Assembly: GCA_031179305.1 (NCBI GenBank)
Contig: JAPSHX010000006.1
Coordinates: 36,914-100,913, forward strand
DNA length: 64,000 nt
From: Paenarthrobacter sp.
Lineage (GTDB): Bacteria; Actinomycetota; Actinomycetes; Actinomycetales; Micrococcaceae
Reading direction: 5' to 3'
Shown here: positions 45,062 to 49,420 of the stretch, piece by piece
Position numbering within the stretch: position 1 is the first letter of the stretch
How the letters are laid out: each line of letters opens with the position of its first letter
The notes under the pieces: model-generated
Seen by the model: the letters and a program-made list of their open reading frames with translations, nothing else
Databases searched by the model: none
What the model was told of the DNA's origin: nothing
Translations under genes and position numbers: made by a program

Positions 45062-46321
45062 CTACTGGACAGGTTCCGCCTGCTTGACCTCTCTTTTGAC
45101 GTCACTTTGCCTCAGCATGGAGTCCGAATTGATCGCAAGAATCCCCGAAAGCAGGGCTGCCAGGAGGATGGAGCCAAAGGCCATGAATGACGAGACGCCC
45201 ATAAGAAACGTGGCAACTGCAAGGCTGAGGGGACTGGATACAGTTTCAAGAAACTGGACCGCCGTCATGGTCTTGCCCAGGTCAGACGAGGGAATCTGTT
45301 GATGGATGAGGGACGTGCGTCCCACCGTCCATGCGATGCCGCCCGTACAGACGACGAAAAGGGCACATGCCACGGCAATCCACGACGGTATGAAGAAGAG
45401 CAAGGCCCCTGCTGCCATAAGCCATGAGGACCGTTGCATCAGAACGTTTGGGCGCCATTCGGAGAGCAAACCTGACAGAATCGAACCGCAGAAGAGGCCC
45501 GCAGCTGCCGCTGCACCGACGATTCCTACTTCCGTGGCGGAACCCTTGAGGCCAACGGAGGTCTGGAAGATCGCCAATGTGGACAAAGGGGCGGATAGGA
45601 AGCCGACGAGGACAACTGTCCCGGCAAAACGCCACCAACCATGGATTTGGGTAAGTCGCCGGTACCCGGCAGAAAGTTCCTTGAAGAAACCCGGCCGGTC
45701 CGGCAGGCTGCTCGGGCGCTCCGGCCAAGGCAGGAAATTCATGATCAAGGCAATGACCGTAAACGACACTGCATCAACAGCCAGCAACCACCACGGGCCC
45801 CAGACGGCGCTCAAAGCTCCACCAATTGCCGGACCCACGATGGAAGCTGAGGTCCATGCGGTGGAAACTGCGGCATTGAACTTCGCGGTGCCGTCACCGT
45901 ACATCTTCGGGATGGCCACGAAGGTGGCTGTCCGGGCGAACATGTCTAGGCTGCCGCGTAGGAAGGCGCCTAGTACGAGGACCCAAAAGGGCGTGTGCCA
46001 AGGCCCTATCAGCAGCGCCATTGCAGCAACAACAAGTGCTTGACCCCAATAGCCGATGTGGGTCATGACGCGGGGGGACATACGATCCGCGAGTCCGCCG
46101 ATGAGGACTCCGGGGAAAGCCTTGGGAAGTTGTGATGCCACGGCAACAATGGACATCTGGGCAAGGCTGCCGCTTGTCTGCAGAACTATGAGTGGCAGCG
46201 CGATGTTGTACGCACCCCCACCCAACGAATTCACCCACATTCCCGTGAGGTGCAAACGTCTCTGCCATGGCTTTGCCAATGACACTTCAGTTACCTCGGG
46301 GTGACTGGAGAATGGTGACAA
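45062..46321 (-). CDS. MFS exporter (MccC-like role) of the RiPP cluster
   Basis: About 12 TM segments; GGLADRM, IVGPAIGG, DAVSF; last gene of the mccA-mccB operon, overlapping the previous gene. Confidence 0.8.
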   Translation of the reverse strand: MSPFSSHPEVTEVSLAKPWQRRLHLTGMWVNSLGGGAYNIALPLIVLQTSGSLAQMSIVAVASQLPKAFPGVLIGGLADRMSPRVMTHIGYWGQALVVAAMALLIGPWHTPFWVLVLGAFLRGSLDMFARTATFVAIPKMYGDGTAKFNAAVSTAWTSASIVGPAIGGALSAVWGPWWLLAVDAVSFTVIALIMNFLPWPERPSSLPDRPGFFKELSAGYRRLTQIHGWWRFAGTVVLVGFLSAPLSTLAIFQTSVGLKGSATEVGIVGAAAAAGLFCGSILSGLLSEWRPNVLMQRSSWLMAAGALLFFIPSWIAVACALFVVCTGGIAWTVGRTSLIHQQIPSSDLGKTMTAVQFLETVSSPLSLAVATFLMGVSSFMAFGSILLAALLSGILAINSDSMLRQSDVKREVKQAEPVQ

Positions 46322-47132
46322 GGTCGGGCTGCTTTTCCACTGATGTGAGAAGCCATTGCATTACGGGTGCCTGCCAAAAGCTGATATTCCACGTGCGGGC
46401 AATGACCATGTGAAAGATGGTGGTGCAGCAGGGAACTACCATCCGCCACTTGCCGGGAAGAATGAGGGCAAGGGGGAGTGCGACTAATTCAAGAAAGGGA
46501 ATTGTGCGAGTTAGGGCACGAACCGGCATTCTATATCGCTCTTGGGCAAACGGGTGAGTATCCGAGGCCAACAGGTGCGAATGATAGATATGGTTGGCAT
46601 CGCCGCGCCTGACCCAAGCGTCATAGCCGTGGAGGAGTTTGGACAAGCCGGCCTGCGTGTAGGGCAGGTATAGCGCAACCCGTGAGACCGAAAGCGGCAG
46701 GCTCGGGGACTGGCCACTGCCCGGCTTGGACATCTGACTGATGACGAGTACCGCTTCAATGAACGTGTCATACGGCCAGCGGCCCGGTAGGGATCGGGCA
46801 TCCAAAGCTCGTGTTGCCAAGAAGACTCCCAGCGCTGCCCGCCGAATCCAAGAAGAGGACTTTGACCCGGGGTTTCCACAAACCTCGCCGGCAGCCGCGG
46901 CCGCCATCAGTAGTCCGGCGGCCGCGCGTCGGCTCTTCCAAGCGGCCCCTTCATCAGCCGTGCGGTCCACCGCTGACTCCTGTGAAGCAACTGCAGCTCG
47001 GTAGTCACGGGAAGCAGCCGGGCCGGGGCGGAGCGTCAGCGCAAGGGCGGCAACAGCCCACACTGCCGCATTGCGCACATGCTGGAGTTGGACTGGTTTA
47101 CGGCGAAGTTGTCGGAACATACGTGTACACAA
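46287..47132 (-). CDS. HTTM-like membrane protein (SdpB / vitamin-K-dependent carboxylase-like fold); start uncertain
   Basis: Y..AG.SKL....W...G (YTQAGLSKLLHGYDAWVRRG), FLEL, FH..I....I.F (IFHMVIARTWNISF). Confidence 0.6.
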   Translation of the reverse strand: MCTRMFRQLRRKPVQLQHVRNAAVWAVAALALTLRPGPAASRDYRAAVASQESAVDRTADEGAAWKSRRAAAGLLMAAAAAGEVCGNPGSKSSSWIRRAALGVFLATRALDARSLPGRWPYDTFIEAVLVISQMSKPGSGQSPSLPLSVSRVALYLPYTQAGLSKLLHGYDAWVRRGDANHIYHSHLLASDTHPFAQERYRMPVRALTRTIPFLELVALPLALILPGKWRMVVPCCTTIFHMVIARTWNISFWQAPVMQWLLTSVEKQPDLVTILQSPRGN

Positions 47133-47586
47133 TTTCCTTTTCCTCAGGCATTCCCCGAACAGTAGTTGCCACCAGGATGTCCATCCTCAAGGGATGGTCG
47201 GGCAGGTGAGCGGGGGTGCGAACCTCGTCAAACGGTCTCCAGGCGTTGCTTCGAAGCCTCTGGATGATTCTCTGGCAGAGGACATTCTTTGGTTGCTCGT
47301 CCTCACCCATGAAGATGCCGGCGAACACGGCTCCGGCCCGGAAGAACTGGGTTGGAAGGCAGTTTGCCGGGCCGCAAGCAACGGTTGTTCCACCAGGCAT
47401 GTGAAATTCAACTGCGAATCTTGAGACGCGGTCCCGGAACTTCGCATTGAACATATTGTTTGACGCAATTGGCCAGAAGTTTCTGTTGGCCACCGTTGCG
47501 GCGATCGAGGCGACTACGTAGGCCCCCGCCAACGCAACGAGCGCCGTGGACTTGTTGCAGTCAGGCGCACGCAGCACAGCGGCCAT
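47098..47586 (-). CDS. membrane-anchored protein of unknown function (partner of the HTTM-like protein)
   Basis: One N-terminal TM helix then FWPIASNNMF; overlaps both neighbours; start uncertain. Confidence 0.6.
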   Translation of the reverse strand: MAAVLRAPDCNKSTALVALAGAYVVASIAATVANRNFWPIASNNMFNAKFRDRVSRFAVEFHMPGGTTVACGPANCLPTQFFRAGAVFAGIFMGEDEQPKNVLCQRIIQRLRSNAWRPFDEVRTPAHLPDHPLRMDILVATTVRGMPEEKEIVYTYVPTTSP

Positions 47587-48598
47587 TCCTGGCGAAATCT
47601 TCGAACTCCGATGCCAACTCCAGCGAGTCAAACACCAGCCTCCTGCCGTCAAGGTTGGTGGATCCGGTAAGCAGGTAGCGGAACACTTCCATTGCGGCAA
47701 TGGACGCCACGATTGAGTTCAGCGGCCCAAAGCTTGGGGCCTGGTATGAGCTATTGAGATTGGTGGTGGAGAGCGATGCCTTTGATTTGGTCCTGCCGTC
47801 GTTGTCTGTCGCTGCGCATTCCAGGCAAGGGGTGACGCCTGGCCGTACTACCGGGCCTACCACTCCACGCGTATCTTGATACCCGGCGCAAGTGAAGGGT
47901 GTGCCGGTGGCGATGGACGCCTGGTTAGACCACTCGAGCACTTCCTGGGGCGTATCGGCCGAGACCACAACGAAGTCTGAGTCCTGAAAAACAGGCAAGA
48001 GATCGTTCGCTCCGGACATCATGGAGGCGACTTCCACCGTGTTGATGCCGGGGGCCCTGAGGTGAAGGTTTCTTGCAGCGGCTTGAATTTTGGGGGAACC
48101 GATATCTTGCGCAGTGAAGAGGTACTGCCGGGTCAGGTTGCTTTCTTCCACAGTGTCCCCGTCGACCAGGACAATGGTGCCCACACCGGCTGTTGCGAGT
48201 TGCATGGCTACGTTCGTTCCGATCCCTCCCACACCGATTAGCGTGACCTTTCGATTACGCAGCAGATCGCTGGCACCGGGGCCGGTGCTGTGTGCAAGTT
48301 CAAAGTACAGGTCATGGCGGCTGTACCGGCCGGAGAGGTCGAACCTGTACGGCACCAGAATCTCGGCGTCGATAAGTTCCTCGACGATCTCCCCGGAGCC
48401 TTCACCCAGCAGGAGTTCGGCCTTGCCGCCCAAAGCGTCGAGTGTCCGTGGCTGTGAAGCGAAGCTAAGTAGTTCTGCGAGCCCGTCCGGGGCATCCTCG
48501 ATTTCGATTGCGTTGGGCGGGGCCAATCCGATCTGCACGGCCGTTTCCGTGGTGATGACGGGTAGCGACTGCTTGAGGGAGTAGGTTATGACTGCCAA
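47561..48598 (-). CDS. mccB: MccB-like ThiF-family peptide nucleotidyltransferase
   Basis: N-terminal extension of about 90 aa (RRE-like), then RYSR, GVGGIG, D.D.VE.SNLTRQ, VVSAD.P, AGY, GP...PG.TPCLEC, PSFGPLN, terminal CAAC. GGAGG-N6-TTG start at 48598. Confidence 0.88.
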   Translation of the reverse strand: MAVITYSLKQSLPVITTETAVQIGLAPPNAIEIEDAPDGLAELLSFASQPRTLDALGGKAELLLGEGSGEIVEELIDAEILVPYRFDLSGRYSRHDLYFELAHSTGPGASDLLRNRKVTLIGVGGIGTNVAMQLATAGVGTIVLVDGDTVEESNLTRQYLFTAQDIGSPKIQAAARNLHLRAPGINTVEVASMMSGANDLLPVFQDSDFVVVSADTPQEVLEWSNQASIATGTPFTCAGYQDTRGVVGPVVRPGVTPCLECAATDNDGRTKSKASLSTTNLNSSYQAPSFGPLNSIVASIAAMEVFRYLLTGSTNLDGRRLVFDSLELASEFEDFARNGRCAACA

Positions 48599-48616
48599 TT
48601 CTTGCCTCCAATGATG

Positions 48617-48647
48617 AGTGGGGGCCACGCGTTGCGCGGCCCCCACT
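48617..48647. terminator. hairpin between precursor gene and mccB
   Basis: AGTGGGGGCC-N11-GGCCCCCACT; T-tract follows only on the + strand. Confidence 0.65.
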
Positions 48648-48660
48648 TTTTATTCTTGGT

Positions 48661-48720
48661 TTAGTTGAACACGAAGTTCAGCTTGGAACGGCGCTTGGCC
48701 AGTCGCTTGAGCTTAAGCAC
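48661..48720 (-). CDS. mccA: microcin C-like precursor peptide MLKLKRLAKRRSKLNFVFN (19 aa)
   Basis: AAGGAG SD 8 nt upstream of GTG; C-terminal Asn then TAA; directly upstream of the MccB-like gene; too short for the ORF track. Confidence 0.88.
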   Translation of the reverse strand: MLKLKRLAKRRSKLNFVFN

Positions 48721-48762
48721 TTGAATCACTCCTTTGTGTTTATAAACTTGTTGGACGGAATG

Positions 48763-48800
48763 AATCTACGACAGTTGTCATAGATATGACAAGCCTGTCG
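48763..48800 (-). promoter_or_regulatory. putative mccA promoter with overlapping palindromic operator
   Basis: Minus-strand TTGTCA-N18-TAGATT; inverted repeat CGACAG-TTGTCAT-agat-ATGACAA-gc-CTGTCG. Confidence 0.55.
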
Positions 48801-48865
48801 ATTACTTTTTTGCGTGCCGCTTCGGTTGATCTCCGTCAGGGCGTGTGGGGTATAGAGTCGAGGTC

Positions 48866-49420
48866 ATGTTTGAACTTGTCCCGCCGAATGTTGCCTTCCA
48901 CCAGTCATTCCTTGAGTCTCACCGCGAGTGGGGCGGCGTCCATCAGGATGGCGCCGCCGTCTTCCTGGCGGACGATGTCACCAGCGCGGAGGGGTTCGCA
49001 GCTTGGGTTGGTAAGTTGTTGGACGCTGAAAGCACACCTGAGGAGAACGGCATTGTTCCATGCACTTATCTCTGGATCACGGAGGGTCCACGCTACGTAG
49101 GGGCGATTGCGTTCCGGCACCATCTGACGCCGGCTCTCCTGAACTCGGGTGGGCATATCGGCTATGGGATTCGCCCCTCGGATCGCAGGAGGGGGGTGGC
49201 GTCCTGGGCCTTGCAGGAACTGCTGGCTCGTTTGGCTGCGAAGGGGGAGTTGGGTGGGGTTCGGTCGGATCGAGTTCTGCTGACCTGTGATGACGACAAT
49301 TCGGCGTCGATTAGAACCATCGAGCGCTGCGGGGGGCGGCTCGAAGATGCGCGGACGGGTGAAGACGGTCGGCTTTTCCGCCGGTACTGGATCGACCTGG
49401 AAACACCTGCAGCACCATAG
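48866..49420 (+). CDS. GNAT family acetyltransferase (COG3981-like)
   Basis: GGHIGYGIRPSDRRRGVA, LTCDDDNSASIRTIERCGG, RRYWI. Confidence 0.88.
   Translation: MFELVPPNVAFHQSFLESHREWGGVHQDGAAVFLADDVTSAEGFAAWVGKLLDAESTPEENGIVPCTYLWITEGPRYVGAIAFRHHLTPALLNSGGHIGYGIRPSDRRRGVASWALQELLARLAAKGELGGVRSDRVLLTCDDDNSASIRTIERCGGRLEDARTGEDGRLFRRYWIDLETPAAP

What the first reader, a model, noticed from the sequence alone, without database searches (positions are those of the whole stretch)
46287..47586. HTTM-like protein plus TM-anchored partner embedded in the mcc operon: candidate new tailoring or immunity module
Seen: 46287-47132 carries Y..AG.SKL....W...G, a conserved-looking Glu and FH..I....I.F motifs. 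47098-47586 has one TM helix followed by FWPIASNNMF. Established: HTTM-domain proteins include SdpB (works with SdpA in maturing the B. subtilis SdpC toxin) and vitamin-K-dependent carboxylases, and a bacterial orthologue (MloH) carboxylates an Asp-derived group in malonomycin. Inference: the pair may be a split HTTM enzyme. Since the microcin C warhead is an aspartyl-nucleotide, it could modify that residue, process the precursor at the membrane, or give self-protection. The family assignment is by eye.
Basis: partly seen in the sequence, partly recalled or inferred. Interest (0 to 1): 0.8.

Follow-up and report, generated by a model that had tools for sequence, protein, structure and literature searches.

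The report
Two-part carboxylase-like enzyme in microcin operon
Inside a microcin C-type antibiotic operon of an Arthrobacter-like soil bacterium sit two overlapping genes that most likely form one two-subunit membrane enzyme, distantly related to the vitamin K-dependent carboxylase; no paper searched describes such a pair for this antibiotic class, and what it does is untested.

Summary
Minus-strand gene order is mccA (19 aa, ends in Asn), hairpin, mccB (ThiF), X (47586-47098, 162 aa), Y (47120-46287, 277 aa), MFS exporter, with a divergent GNAT.

- **Y** is a very divergent HTTM-superfamily protein. Pfam does not detect it, but a profile-profile comparison with bona fide HTTM proteins gives 90.5% probability. 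The lysine of the HTTM signature motif (K161) is invariant in 22 relatives.
- **X** has one TM helix plus about 125 aa. It matches no Pfam or NCBIfam family and is not detectably DUF5819/SdpA, but it has the same architecture and gene position.
- **Pairing:** co-folding supports an X-Y complex (ipSAE 0.81, best control 0.00).
- **Conservation:** all 11 Arthrobacter/Paenarthrobacter loci keep GNAT, mccB, X, Y and MFS. So do distant mcc clusters that also carry MccD-like and MccE-like genes. The pair recurs in 13 other actinomycete loci, most (10) with asparagine-synthetase-A-like and/or MccF-like S66 peptidase genes.

Best reading (about 0.4): a menaquinol-dependent two-subunit enzyme that tailors the peptidyl-nucleotide at the membrane. 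The main rival is immunity or export help (about 0.3). The precursor peptide was already listed in 2019; X and Y were not discussed. The scan has noted similar two-part HTTM modules in other RiPP clusters. I rate this a new variant of a known kind.

The parts
48661..48720 (-). mccA: 19-codon precursor gene (MLKLKRLAKRRSKLNFVFN, GTG start after AAGGAG), C-terminal Asn
   Evidence: Conserved in related loci, and as MFKLKKLFKSRSKINFVFN in distant clusters. Listed as a predicted Arthrobacter MccA in Zukher 2019 Table S1.
48610..48654 (-). GC-rich hairpin between mccA and mccB
   Evidence: Inverted repeat I1, 21-nt arms, 81% complementary. Its function was not tested.
47561..48646 (-). mccB, ThiF-type nucleotidyltransferase. 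The longest ORF starts at GTG 48646 inside the hairpin; TTG 48598 after GGAGG is the more likely start.
   Evidence: Pfam ThiF 6e-44; sequence read; 76-94% identical in related loci.
47098..47586 (-). X: 162-aa protein with one N-terminal TM helix and an alpha/beta domain. Proposed accessory subunit. Overlaps the mccB stop by 26 nt.
   Evidence: No Pfam or NCBIfam family. 57 unnamed relatives. Predicted to bind Y.
46287..47120 (-). Y: 277-aa multi-helix membrane protein, a divergent HTTM-superfamily member with invariant K161. Overlaps the X stop by 23 nt and the MFS start.
45062..46321 (-). MFS exporter (MccC-like)
   Evidence: Pfam MFS_1 1e-20; NCBIfam TIGR00900 8e-32.
48845..49420 (+). Divergent GNAT acetyltransferase, a candidate MccE2/RimL-type immunity enzyme
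   Evidence: Pfam Acetyltransf_3 1.8e-8. Kept in all 11 related loci and in L017-L020.
48763..48792 (-). Promoter-like site (TTGTCA-18-TAGATT) upstream of mccA, overlapped by the perfect palindrome TTGTCATA-N2-TATGACAA (48775-48792)
   Evidence: These are consensus matches only.

Best explanation
X and Y form one two-subunit, membrane-embedded enzyme of the HTTM/vitamin K-dependent-carboxylase type.

- Y is the catalytic subunit. Its invariant Lys161 sits on the signature helix and is homologous to the quinol-deprotonating Lys218 of human GGCX.
- X contributes a TM helix that packs on that helix, plus a juxtamembrane cap. This matches what is described for DUF5819 partners and for the fused regions of MloH and GGCX.
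- The enzyme is translationally coupled to mccB and the MFS exporter.
- It most likely uses membrane menaquinol and O2 (with or without CO2) to carry out a last tailoring step on the MccB-made peptidyl-nucleotide. The probable target is its Asp/Asn-derived end, and the reaction probably occurs on the outer face of the membrane around export.

Shown here: the genes are real; there is remote HTTM homology; the complex is predicted; the pair is strictly co-conserved with mccB and recurs in other Asp/Asn-activating clusters.

Inferred, not shown: enzymatic activity, cofactor, substrate, reaction type and topology.
For: - HTTM homology: the A1 profile reaches P0028-P0032. Of these, P0032 passes Pfam HTTM and P0029 hits it at 5.5e-4. 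hhalign of A7 against six bona fide HTTM proteins gives 90.5%, E 1.4e-6 over residues 143-264, aligning K161, W169, F236-H237 and I246/F248.
- Complex: median ipSAE 0.81 (runs 0.79, 0.81, 0.82), best of 3 controls 0.00; runs agree in at least 83% of contacts; partner pLDDT at least 82. This mark was reached by 58 of 80 solved complexes and 2 of 110 mismatched pairs. X residues 12-34 and 36-50 touch Y residues 148-165.
- Operon: the genes overlap.
- Co-conservation: 11 of 11 loci; the same 3 of 61 related genomes carry mccB and Y. Distant clusters keep ThiF-X-Y-MFS; L017-L020 add GNAT, an MccD-like methyltransferase and a decarboxylase (complete in L017), and L015 the last two. Their MccA is nearly identical.
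- Recurrence: X and Y are adjacent in 13 of 14 other actinomycete loci and in metagenomic contigs, most with an asparagine-synthetase-A-like enzyme (NF005053, 1.8e-63) and/or an S66 peptidase, and many with ATP-grasp genes.
- These clusters already carry immunity-type genes (GNAT or S66), so X-Y is not needed to fill that role.
- Precedents: MloH carboxylates an aspartyl residue in malonomycin biosynthesis, and DUF5819+HTTM pairs are predicted to form a GGCX-like complex. HTTM proteins are presumed maturation enzymes in linaridin clusters.
- Topology hint: short loops carrying only K/R alternate with long loops that hold all the acidic residues. X contacts Y loops 30-48, 101-117 and 163-185, which lie on one side.
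Against: - No biochemical data exist for any member of the family.
- Pfam HTTM does not detect Y itself. The best hit is LMF1, 16.5 bits against a cut-off of 27. A profile search of PDB sequences did not find GGCX.
- The position aligned to GGCX His160, which is needed for carboxylation, is Phe in mcc-type Y (WPYDTF). The other clade keeps His in 14 of 15 proteins (WNYNSH). That alignment is weak (48% probability).
- One locus (L033) has X-Y directly behind an ABC-2 exporter, and none of the cluster genes used as queries was found within 8 kb. This fits a resistance role better.
- X shows no detectable similarity to DUF5819 (0.15%).
- The monomer structure models were unusable (pLDDT 48 and 44).
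Confidence: 0.4

Rival explanations
1. X-Y is a self-protection or export-accessory module. It works with the adjacent transporter, for example by inactivating or excluding compound at the membrane or assisting efflux, and does not change the final product.
For: - X-Y lies next to the MFS gene in every mcc-type locus and in L022.
- In L033 it follows an ABC-2 exporter operon, and none of the cluster genes used as queries was found within 8 kb.
- mcc operons often stack several immunity functions (PMC9239234).
- The aligned His160-equivalent is missing in mcc-type Y.
Against: - The characterised or genetically studied HTTM proteins named in the papers read are biosynthetic or maturation factors, not immunity proteins.
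- The clusters already carry GNAT or S66 immunity-type genes.
- In the second cluster type X-Y sits among the biosynthetic genes, often far from any transporter.
- The catalytic-type lysine is invariant.
Confidence: 0.3
2. X-Y is an SdpAB-like or linaridin-like peptide maturation factor. It acts on the 19-aa MccA peptide part (processing or a side-chain change), not on the nucleotide end.
For:
- HTTM genes are assumed to be maturation factors in linaridin clusters.
- The MccA sequence is far better conserved than X and Y: the last 5 residues (NFVFN) are identical in clusters whose Y proteins are only about 27% identical.
Against: - X-Y also occurs in clusters without ThiF/MccB, built around AsnA-like, ATP-grasp and aaRS-like enzymes. 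I did not search those clusters for small precursor genes.
- No NCBIfam or Pfam SdpA/SdpB-type hit appeared at E up to 5.
- There is no SdpC-like gene.
Confidence: 0.12
3. X and Y are unrelated neighbours or non-functional ORFs produced by high G+C content, and the motifs are chance.
For: - The window is about 60% G+C and full of long spurious ORFs.
- Neither protein hits a curated family above its cut-off.
Against: - Both proteins are conserved from 93% down to about 20% identity with invariant motifs.
- Their adjacency is kept in more than 30 loci across several actinomycete genera.
- The complex is confidently predicted while all controls scored 0.00.
Confidence: 0.02

Closest known systems
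DUF5819 (PF19136) + HTTM (PF05090) two-gene modules, such as the Melghirimyces thermohalophilus pair (bioRxiv 10.64898/2026.08.19.745780)
   Same: A small protein with an N-terminal TM helix and a domain of about 130-160 aa is encoded immediately upstream of an HTTM membrane protein. The predicted complex has the small protein's TM helix packing into the HTTM bundle and its domain capping the site near the conserved Lys. I saw the same gene order in the Streptomyces-like loci L046 and L047.
   Different: X is not detectably DUF5819, either by HMM or by profile-profile comparison (0.15%). Y is much shorter (277 aa), has no DCC domain and is missed by the Pfam HTTM model. The module is embedded in an mcc-type antibiotic cluster.
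MloH, the vitamin K-dependent carboxylase orthologue of malonomycin biosynthesis (Law et al. 2018, as cited)
   Same: A bacterial HTTM enzyme inside an antibiotic gene cluster that acts on an aspartate-derived moiety. The X-Y clusters all centre on Asp/Asn-activating enzymes (MccB on a C-terminal Asn, or AsnA-like enzymes).
   Different: MloH is a single fused polypeptide. The aligned His160-equivalent is absent in the mcc-type Y. Carboxylation by X-Y is pure inference.
Human gamma-glutamyl carboxylase GGCX (PDB 9L54 and others; PMC12647623)
   Same: It shares the signature helix with the lysine (GGCX K218, here K161), the following Trp, and a later aromatic position (F248 aligned with the HTTM IGIF motif).
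   Different: Homology is detectable only by profile-profile comparison over about 120 residues. A profile search of PDB sequences does not retrieve GGCX. There is no lumenal C-terminal domain; X may replace it. The substrate has no Gla-type propeptide.
Bacillus subtilis SdpA/SdpB, and HTTM proteins of linaridin clusters (LinG/CrdG, PMC9927463)
   Same: An HTTM-type membrane protein encoded in a ribosomal-peptide toxin or antibiotic cluster as an accessory maturation factor of unknown mechanism. In the Sdp case it comes with a small partner.
   Different: There is no family-level sequence match, no SdpC-like or linaridin precursor, and no alpha/beta-hydrolase partner. The product class here is a peptidyl-nucleotide.
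Escherichia coli mccABCDEF and other validated mcc operons (PMC4010828, PMC6495379, PMC9239234)
   Same: mccA ends in Asn and is followed by a hairpin, a ThiF-type MccB, an MFS exporter and a GNAT. The Arthrobacter precursor is already in Zukher 2019 Table S1.
   Different: None of these papers mentions X- or Y-like genes. The Arthrobacter operon lacks MccD, MccE1 and MccF. The precursor is 19 aa and strongly cationic.

Membership tests
HTTM domain / VKGC superfamily (Pfam PF05090), for Y | Match to the Pfam HTTM model above its gathering score | tested here: not met
   P0001 has no HTTM hit; its best hit is LMF1, 16.5 bits against a cut-off of 27. The own genome gives 0 HTTM matches. Only the distant family member P0032 passes (29.5 against 27.7).
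HTTM domain / VKGC superfamily (Pfam PF05090), for Y | Profile-level homology to bona fide HTTM proteins | tested here: met
   hhalign of A7 against four HTTM proteins gives 84.7%, E 6.6e-6. Against six it gives 90.5%, E 1.4e-6 over residues 143-264. The Atlas feature search lists HTTM clusters at 0.84-0.85, which is a lead only.
HTTM domain / VKGC superfamily (Pfam PF05090), for Y | Conserved lysine of the AG..K(L) helix (GGCX K218) followed by Trp | tested here: met
   K161 and W169 are invariant in 22 sequences and align with the AKL...W motif of HTTM proteins. There is a 3-residue insertion between K and W.
HTTM domain / VKGC superfamily (Pfam PF05090), for Y | Asn-His pair equivalent to GGCX N159/H160 (needed for carboxylation) | tested here: inconclusive
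   mcc-type Y has W-P-Y-D-T-F, while the second clade has W-N-Y-N-S-H (14 of 15). The alignment of this region to HTTM Y-x-N-H has only 48% probability. Some bona fide HTTM proteins also lack the His.
HTTM domain / VKGC superfamily (Pfam PF05090), for Y | GGCX-like membrane fold | tested here: inconclusive
   The AF2 monomer model has pLDDT 47.9 and is unusable. The co-fold gave pLDDT 78-81 for Y but no model that could be sent to a fold search.
HTTM domain / VKGC superfamily (Pfam PF05090), for Y | Quinol- and O2-dependent catalysis | not testable with these tools
   Needs biochemistry.
DUF5819 / SdpA-like partners of HTTM (PF19136), for X | Sequence match to the family | tested here: not met
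   None of the 10 X relatives hits DUF5819 in Pfam at E up to 5. The own genome has 0 DUF5819 matches. hhalign of the X family against 4 DUF5819 proteins gives 0.15%.
DUF5819 / SdpA-like partners of HTTM (PF19136), for X | N-terminal TM helix plus small domain, gene adjacent to an HTTM gene, predicted complex through the TM helix | tested here: met
   See for the secondary structure. Adjacency holds in more than 30 loci. The complex scores ipSAE 0.81 against 0.00. Compare the description.
Microcin C-type (mcc) biosynthetic cluster | Short precursor ending in Asn, ThiF-type MccB, and an exporter | tested here: met
   The precursor is listed in Zukher 2019 Table S1.
Microcin C-type (mcc) biosynthetic cluster | Peptidyl-nucleotide product with an N-P bond | not testable with these tools
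   No product data for Arthrobacter clusters were found in the papers read.
SdpAB-SdpC system | SdpA/SdpB family match and an adjacent SdpC-type toxin gene | tested here: not met
   Neither X-like nor Y-like proteins hit any Sdp-type NCBIfam family at E up to 5. The neighbours are mccB and an MFS.

The most novel reading that the evidence does not exclude
X-Y is a new two-subunit, menaquinone-dependent HTTM enzyme. It carboxylates or oxygenates the aspartyl-nucleotide end of a microcin C-like compound on the outer face of the membrane, so the fully active antibiotic is completed only after export. The same cassette would then mark a set of undescribed aminoacyl-nucleotide-type antibiotic clusters in Streptomyces, Nonomuraea, Micromonospora and relatives. 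These clusters carry AsnA-like, AlaRS-like and HisRS-like enzymes, an extra PheRS, ATP-grasp ligases and MccF-like peptidases.
Probability: 0.2. Interest if true: 0.85.

Novelty: new variant of a known kind. Interest (0 to 1): 0.62.

Why it matters
Microcin C chemistry is considered well mapped: adenylation or cytidylation, aminopropylation and carboxymethylation. A vitamin K-carboxylase-like membrane enzyme would add a new kind of step, or a new kind of self-protection.

Bacterial HTTM proteins are almost entirely uncharacterised, so a cluster with a known substrate class would make their chemistry directly testable. This one is a small five-gene operon with a 19-aa precursor.

The X-Y cassette also works as a genome-mining handle. 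It led to actinomycete clusters rich in aaRS paralogues and MccF-like peptidases that look like undescribed aaRS-targeting natural products.

Tried and rejected
- AF2 monomer models of Y (alignment A1) and X (A2) came out at pLDDT 47.9 and 43.8. They were too poor for any fold search, so none was run.
- Profile searches of PDB sequences with A3 and A7 gave only chance hits and did not find GGCX.
- I tested whether X is the missing C-terminal part of long HTTM proteins. hhalign against four full-length HTTM proteins gave probabilities of 0.5% or less, so I rejected this.
- I tested whether X is a DUF5819 member. It is not detectable as one. Only the order of secondary-structure elements looks collinear in a forced alignment, and that is not evidence.
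- The search for related loci with the full X alignment failed because no conserved stretch was found. It worked with a subset.
- Plasmid search with Y found no match.
- Literature searches for HTTM together with microcin C or mcc found no paper holding both terms; a search for MccF/PheRS/ATP-grasp clusters in Streptomyces found no paper at all.
Full report
**1. What is there**

The window has about 60% G+C. On the minus strand lies a tight operon:
- A 19-codon ORF at 48720-48661, preceded by AAGGAG, encodes MLKLKRLAKRRSKLNFVFN.
- A GC-rich hairpin follows.
- Next comes a ThiF-family gene, Pfam 6e-44.
- Gene X runs 47586-47098 (162 aa).
- Gene Y runs 47120-46287 (277 aa).
- An MFS transporter gene runs 46321-45062 (Pfam MFS_1 1e-20).

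X overlaps the end of mccB by 26 nt. Y overlaps the end of X by 23 nt. The MFS ORF overlaps the end of Y. A GNAT gene (48845-49420) is divergent from the operon.

This is an mcc-type cluster. The same precursor is already listed for Arthrobacter strains in Table S1 of Zukher et al. 2019 (PMC6495379; the lead came from an earlier scan note). That paper and the other mcc papers I read do not mention X or Y.

**2. The observation**

They are not chance. Y has close relatives only in Arthrobacter and Paenarthrobacter (61-93% identity), and so does X (70-93%). In wider alignments the quoted residues are invariant:
- In Y: Y154, Q156, K161, W169, E211, F236, H237, I246, F248 and W249, across 22 proteins down to 16-20% identity.
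- In X: N36, W38, P39, N44, F46, P78, F82, R83 and W116, across 20 proteins.

**3. What Y is**

No curated model detects Y. Pfam gives only LMF1, at 16.5 bits against a cut-off of 27. NCBIfam gives nothing.

An exhaustive profile search of 1.84 billion representative proteins found only nine proteins:
- Three are clear relatives (P0025-P0027, E 1e-33 to 1e-24).
- Five are distant (E 3e-6 to 6e-5). Of these, P0032 passes the Pfam HTTM cut-off (29.5 against 27.7 bits) and P0029 hits HTTM at 5.5e-4.

I fetched bona fide HTTM proteins from other actinobacterial genomes and ran profile-profile comparisons. The 22-sequence Y alignment matches a six-sequence HTTM alignment with 90.5% probability (E 1.4e-6) over residues 143-264. 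With four sequences the figure was 84.7%.

The alignment places these residues on HTTM features:
- K161 falls on the lysine of the HTTM A-K-L motif. [quoted passage not shown]
- W169 falls on the following Trp.
- F236-H237 falls on the HTTM F-H.
- I246/F248 falls on the I-G-I-F motif.

Profile searches of PDB sequences did not retrieve GGCX, so the relationship is remote.

One caution applies. The region that aligns, weakly (48% probability), with the GGCX Asn159-His160 pair reads W-P-Y-D-T-F in the mcc-associated proteins. In the other clade it reads W-N-Y-N-S-H in 14 of 15 proteins. His160 matters for carboxylation in GGCX.

**4. What X is**

X has an N-terminal hydrophobic helix and then a domain of about 125 residues. 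The predicted order of elements is helix, three strands, two helices, two strands, although the model itself was poor.

X matches no Pfam or NCBIfam family, even at E up to 5 across ten relatives. A profile search of 5.8 billion proteins found 57 clusters. All are unnamed, none carries a Pfam domain, and every one named by a source is from an actinomycete.

X does not resemble any part of long HTTM proteins, nor DUF5819 (0.15%). So 'split HTTM' is not literally right. Y spans the whole HTTM domain (P0032 covers profile positions 9-242 of 259), and X is a separate subunit.

Its architecture and gene position are nevertheless those of DUF5819. A 2026 preprint predicts that DUF5819 binds the adjacent HTTM protein through its TM helix and sits where the GGCX clamp domains are. 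The same preprint notes that the two parts are fused in MloH.

**5. Do they bind?**

Co-folding Y (alignment A7) with X (alignment A8) gave a median ipSAE of 0.81 (runs 0.79, 0.81, 0.82). The best of three controls scored 0.00. The runs agree in at least 83% of contacts, and partner pLDDT is at least 82. This mark was reached by 58 of 80 solved complexes and by 2 of 110 mismatched pairs. Those counts hold only roughly here because my own alignments were used.

The X TM helix (12-34) and its invariant N-x-W-P...N-M-F stretch (36-50) pack on the Y helix that carries Y154, Q156 and K161 (148-165). The X domain covers Y loops 30-48, 101-117 and 163-185. This supports binding but does not prove it.

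**6. Co-conservation**

- All 11 loci found in species-representative genomes keep GNAT, mccB, X, Y and MFS, while the flanks differ.
- In a sample of 61 related genomes, the same three carry Y and this mccB.
- Much more distant Y relatives (27-34% identical) sit in ThiF-X-Y-MFS clusters. L017-L020 also carry a GNAT, an MccD-like methyltransferase and an MccE1-like PLP decarboxylase (not all contigs reach the last). L015 carries the methyltransferase and decarboxylase.
- In L017-L020 the precursor is MFKLKKLFKSRSKINFVFN, nearly the same peptide.

**7. A wider home for the cassette**

The most distant Y relatives are also preceded by an X relative. A scan for X found 14 further loci in Streptomyces, Nonomuraea, Sphaerisporangium, Micromonospora, Actinophytocola, Nocardia and Amycolatopsis. 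In 13 of them Y is adjacent.

These clusters lack MccB. Their gene content includes:
- an asparagine-synthetase-A-like AsnRS paralogue (NF005053, 1.8e-63);
- a methyltransferase;
- an S66 peptidase, the family of the MccF immunity enzyme;
- an AlaRS-like catalytic domain;
- extra PheRS alpha and beta genes;
- ATP-grasp ligases;
- in single cases a HisRS-like gene, asparaginase II, an NRPS module or a B12-radical SAM enzyme.

The common thread with mcc is activation of Asp/Asn together with immunity of the aminoacyl-nucleotide type.

One locus (L033) is different. There X-Y directly follows an ABC-2 exporter operon, and none of the cluster genes I used as queries lies within 8 kb.

**8. Mechanism**

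*Best reading (0.4).* X-Y is a two-subunit HTTM enzyme. It uses membrane menaquinol and O2, with K161 as the base, to tailor the peptidyl-nucleotide. The likely target is its Asp/Asn-derived end, by analogy with MloH.

The charge pattern of Y suggests the topology. The short loops carry only K/R, and the long loops that X contacts hold all the acidic residues. GGCX is known to have a lumenal active site (my own knowledge). Together these suggest that the X-Y site faces outward, so the step may follow export. This topology is inference.

*Main rival (0.3).* X-Y is an immunity or export accessory. This is favoured by L033, by the adjacency to transporters and by the missing His. It is disfavoured by the biosynthetic roles of the known HTTM proteins and by the GNAT or S66 genes already present in these clusters.

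*Third reading (0.12).* X-Y is an SdpAB-like or linaridin-like factor acting on the peptide part.

*Chance ORFs* are excluded (0.02).

**9. Novelty**

Two-part HTTM modules are a known, though unexplained, kind: SdpAB, DUF5819+HTTM pairs and LinG. Earlier notes of this scan report them in lasso-, linaridin-like and other clusters on other DNA.

What is new here:
- a partner family with no detectable link to DUF5819;
- an HTTM clade invisible to Pfam;
- their fixed place in mcc-type and related aminoacyl-nucleotide-like clusters.

I found no paper on any of these points. I therefore rate it a new variant of a known kind.

Noticed in passing
L021, L024, L027-L032, L035, L036, L038, L039 (e.g. 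L027:1290-14524): A recurrent actinomycete gene cluster. It holds an AsnA-like AsnRS paralogue, a methyltransferase, an S66 (MccF-family) peptidase, X-Y, an AlaRS-like catalytic domain, extra PheRS alpha/beta genes and ATP-grasp ligases. It looks like an undescribed biosynthetic cluster for an aaRS-targeting, aminoacyl-nucleotide-like compound. I found no matching paper.
   Followed up: partly
L033:5265-9291: In Micromonospora maritima, X-Y directly follows an ABC-2 exporter operon (an ATPase and two permeases), and none of the cluster genes I used as queries lies within 8 kb. This could be an orphan resistance cassette.
   Followed up: partly
L040:1286-1738: Amycolatopsis azurea has an X-like gene with no detectable Y next to it, either a remnant or a contig-edge effect.
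   Followed up: partly
window 48775-48792 and 48763-48792 (minus strand): The perfect palindrome TTGTCATA-N2-TATGACAA overlaps the -35 of the only promoter-like site upstream of mccA, in the GNAT/mccA divergent region. The CTTGTCA core recurs at the same place in related loci. It is a candidate operator.
   Followed up: partly
window 48740-48781 (minus strand); L008:4334-4372, L011:4337-4375, L014:4342-4380: A second small ORF lies just upstream of mccA. It reads MTDVVDSIRPTN in several relatives, also ending in Asn; in the window it is MTTVVDSFRPTSL. It overlaps the promoter/operator region, so it may just be conserved regulatory DNA.
   Followed up: no
L017:238-297 and L017:373-6465: Metagenomic mcc clusters whose X and Y are about 27-33% identical to the window's encode an almost identical 19-aa precursor (MFKLKKLFKSRSKINFVFN). 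They add an MccD-like methyltransferase and an MccE1-like decarboxylase that the Arthrobacter operon lacks.
   Followed up: partly
L046:697-3305, L047:960-3383: In the Streptomyces-like genomes used as controls, classical DUF5819 genes are followed directly by an HTTM gene. This is the same order as X then Y.
   Followed up: partly
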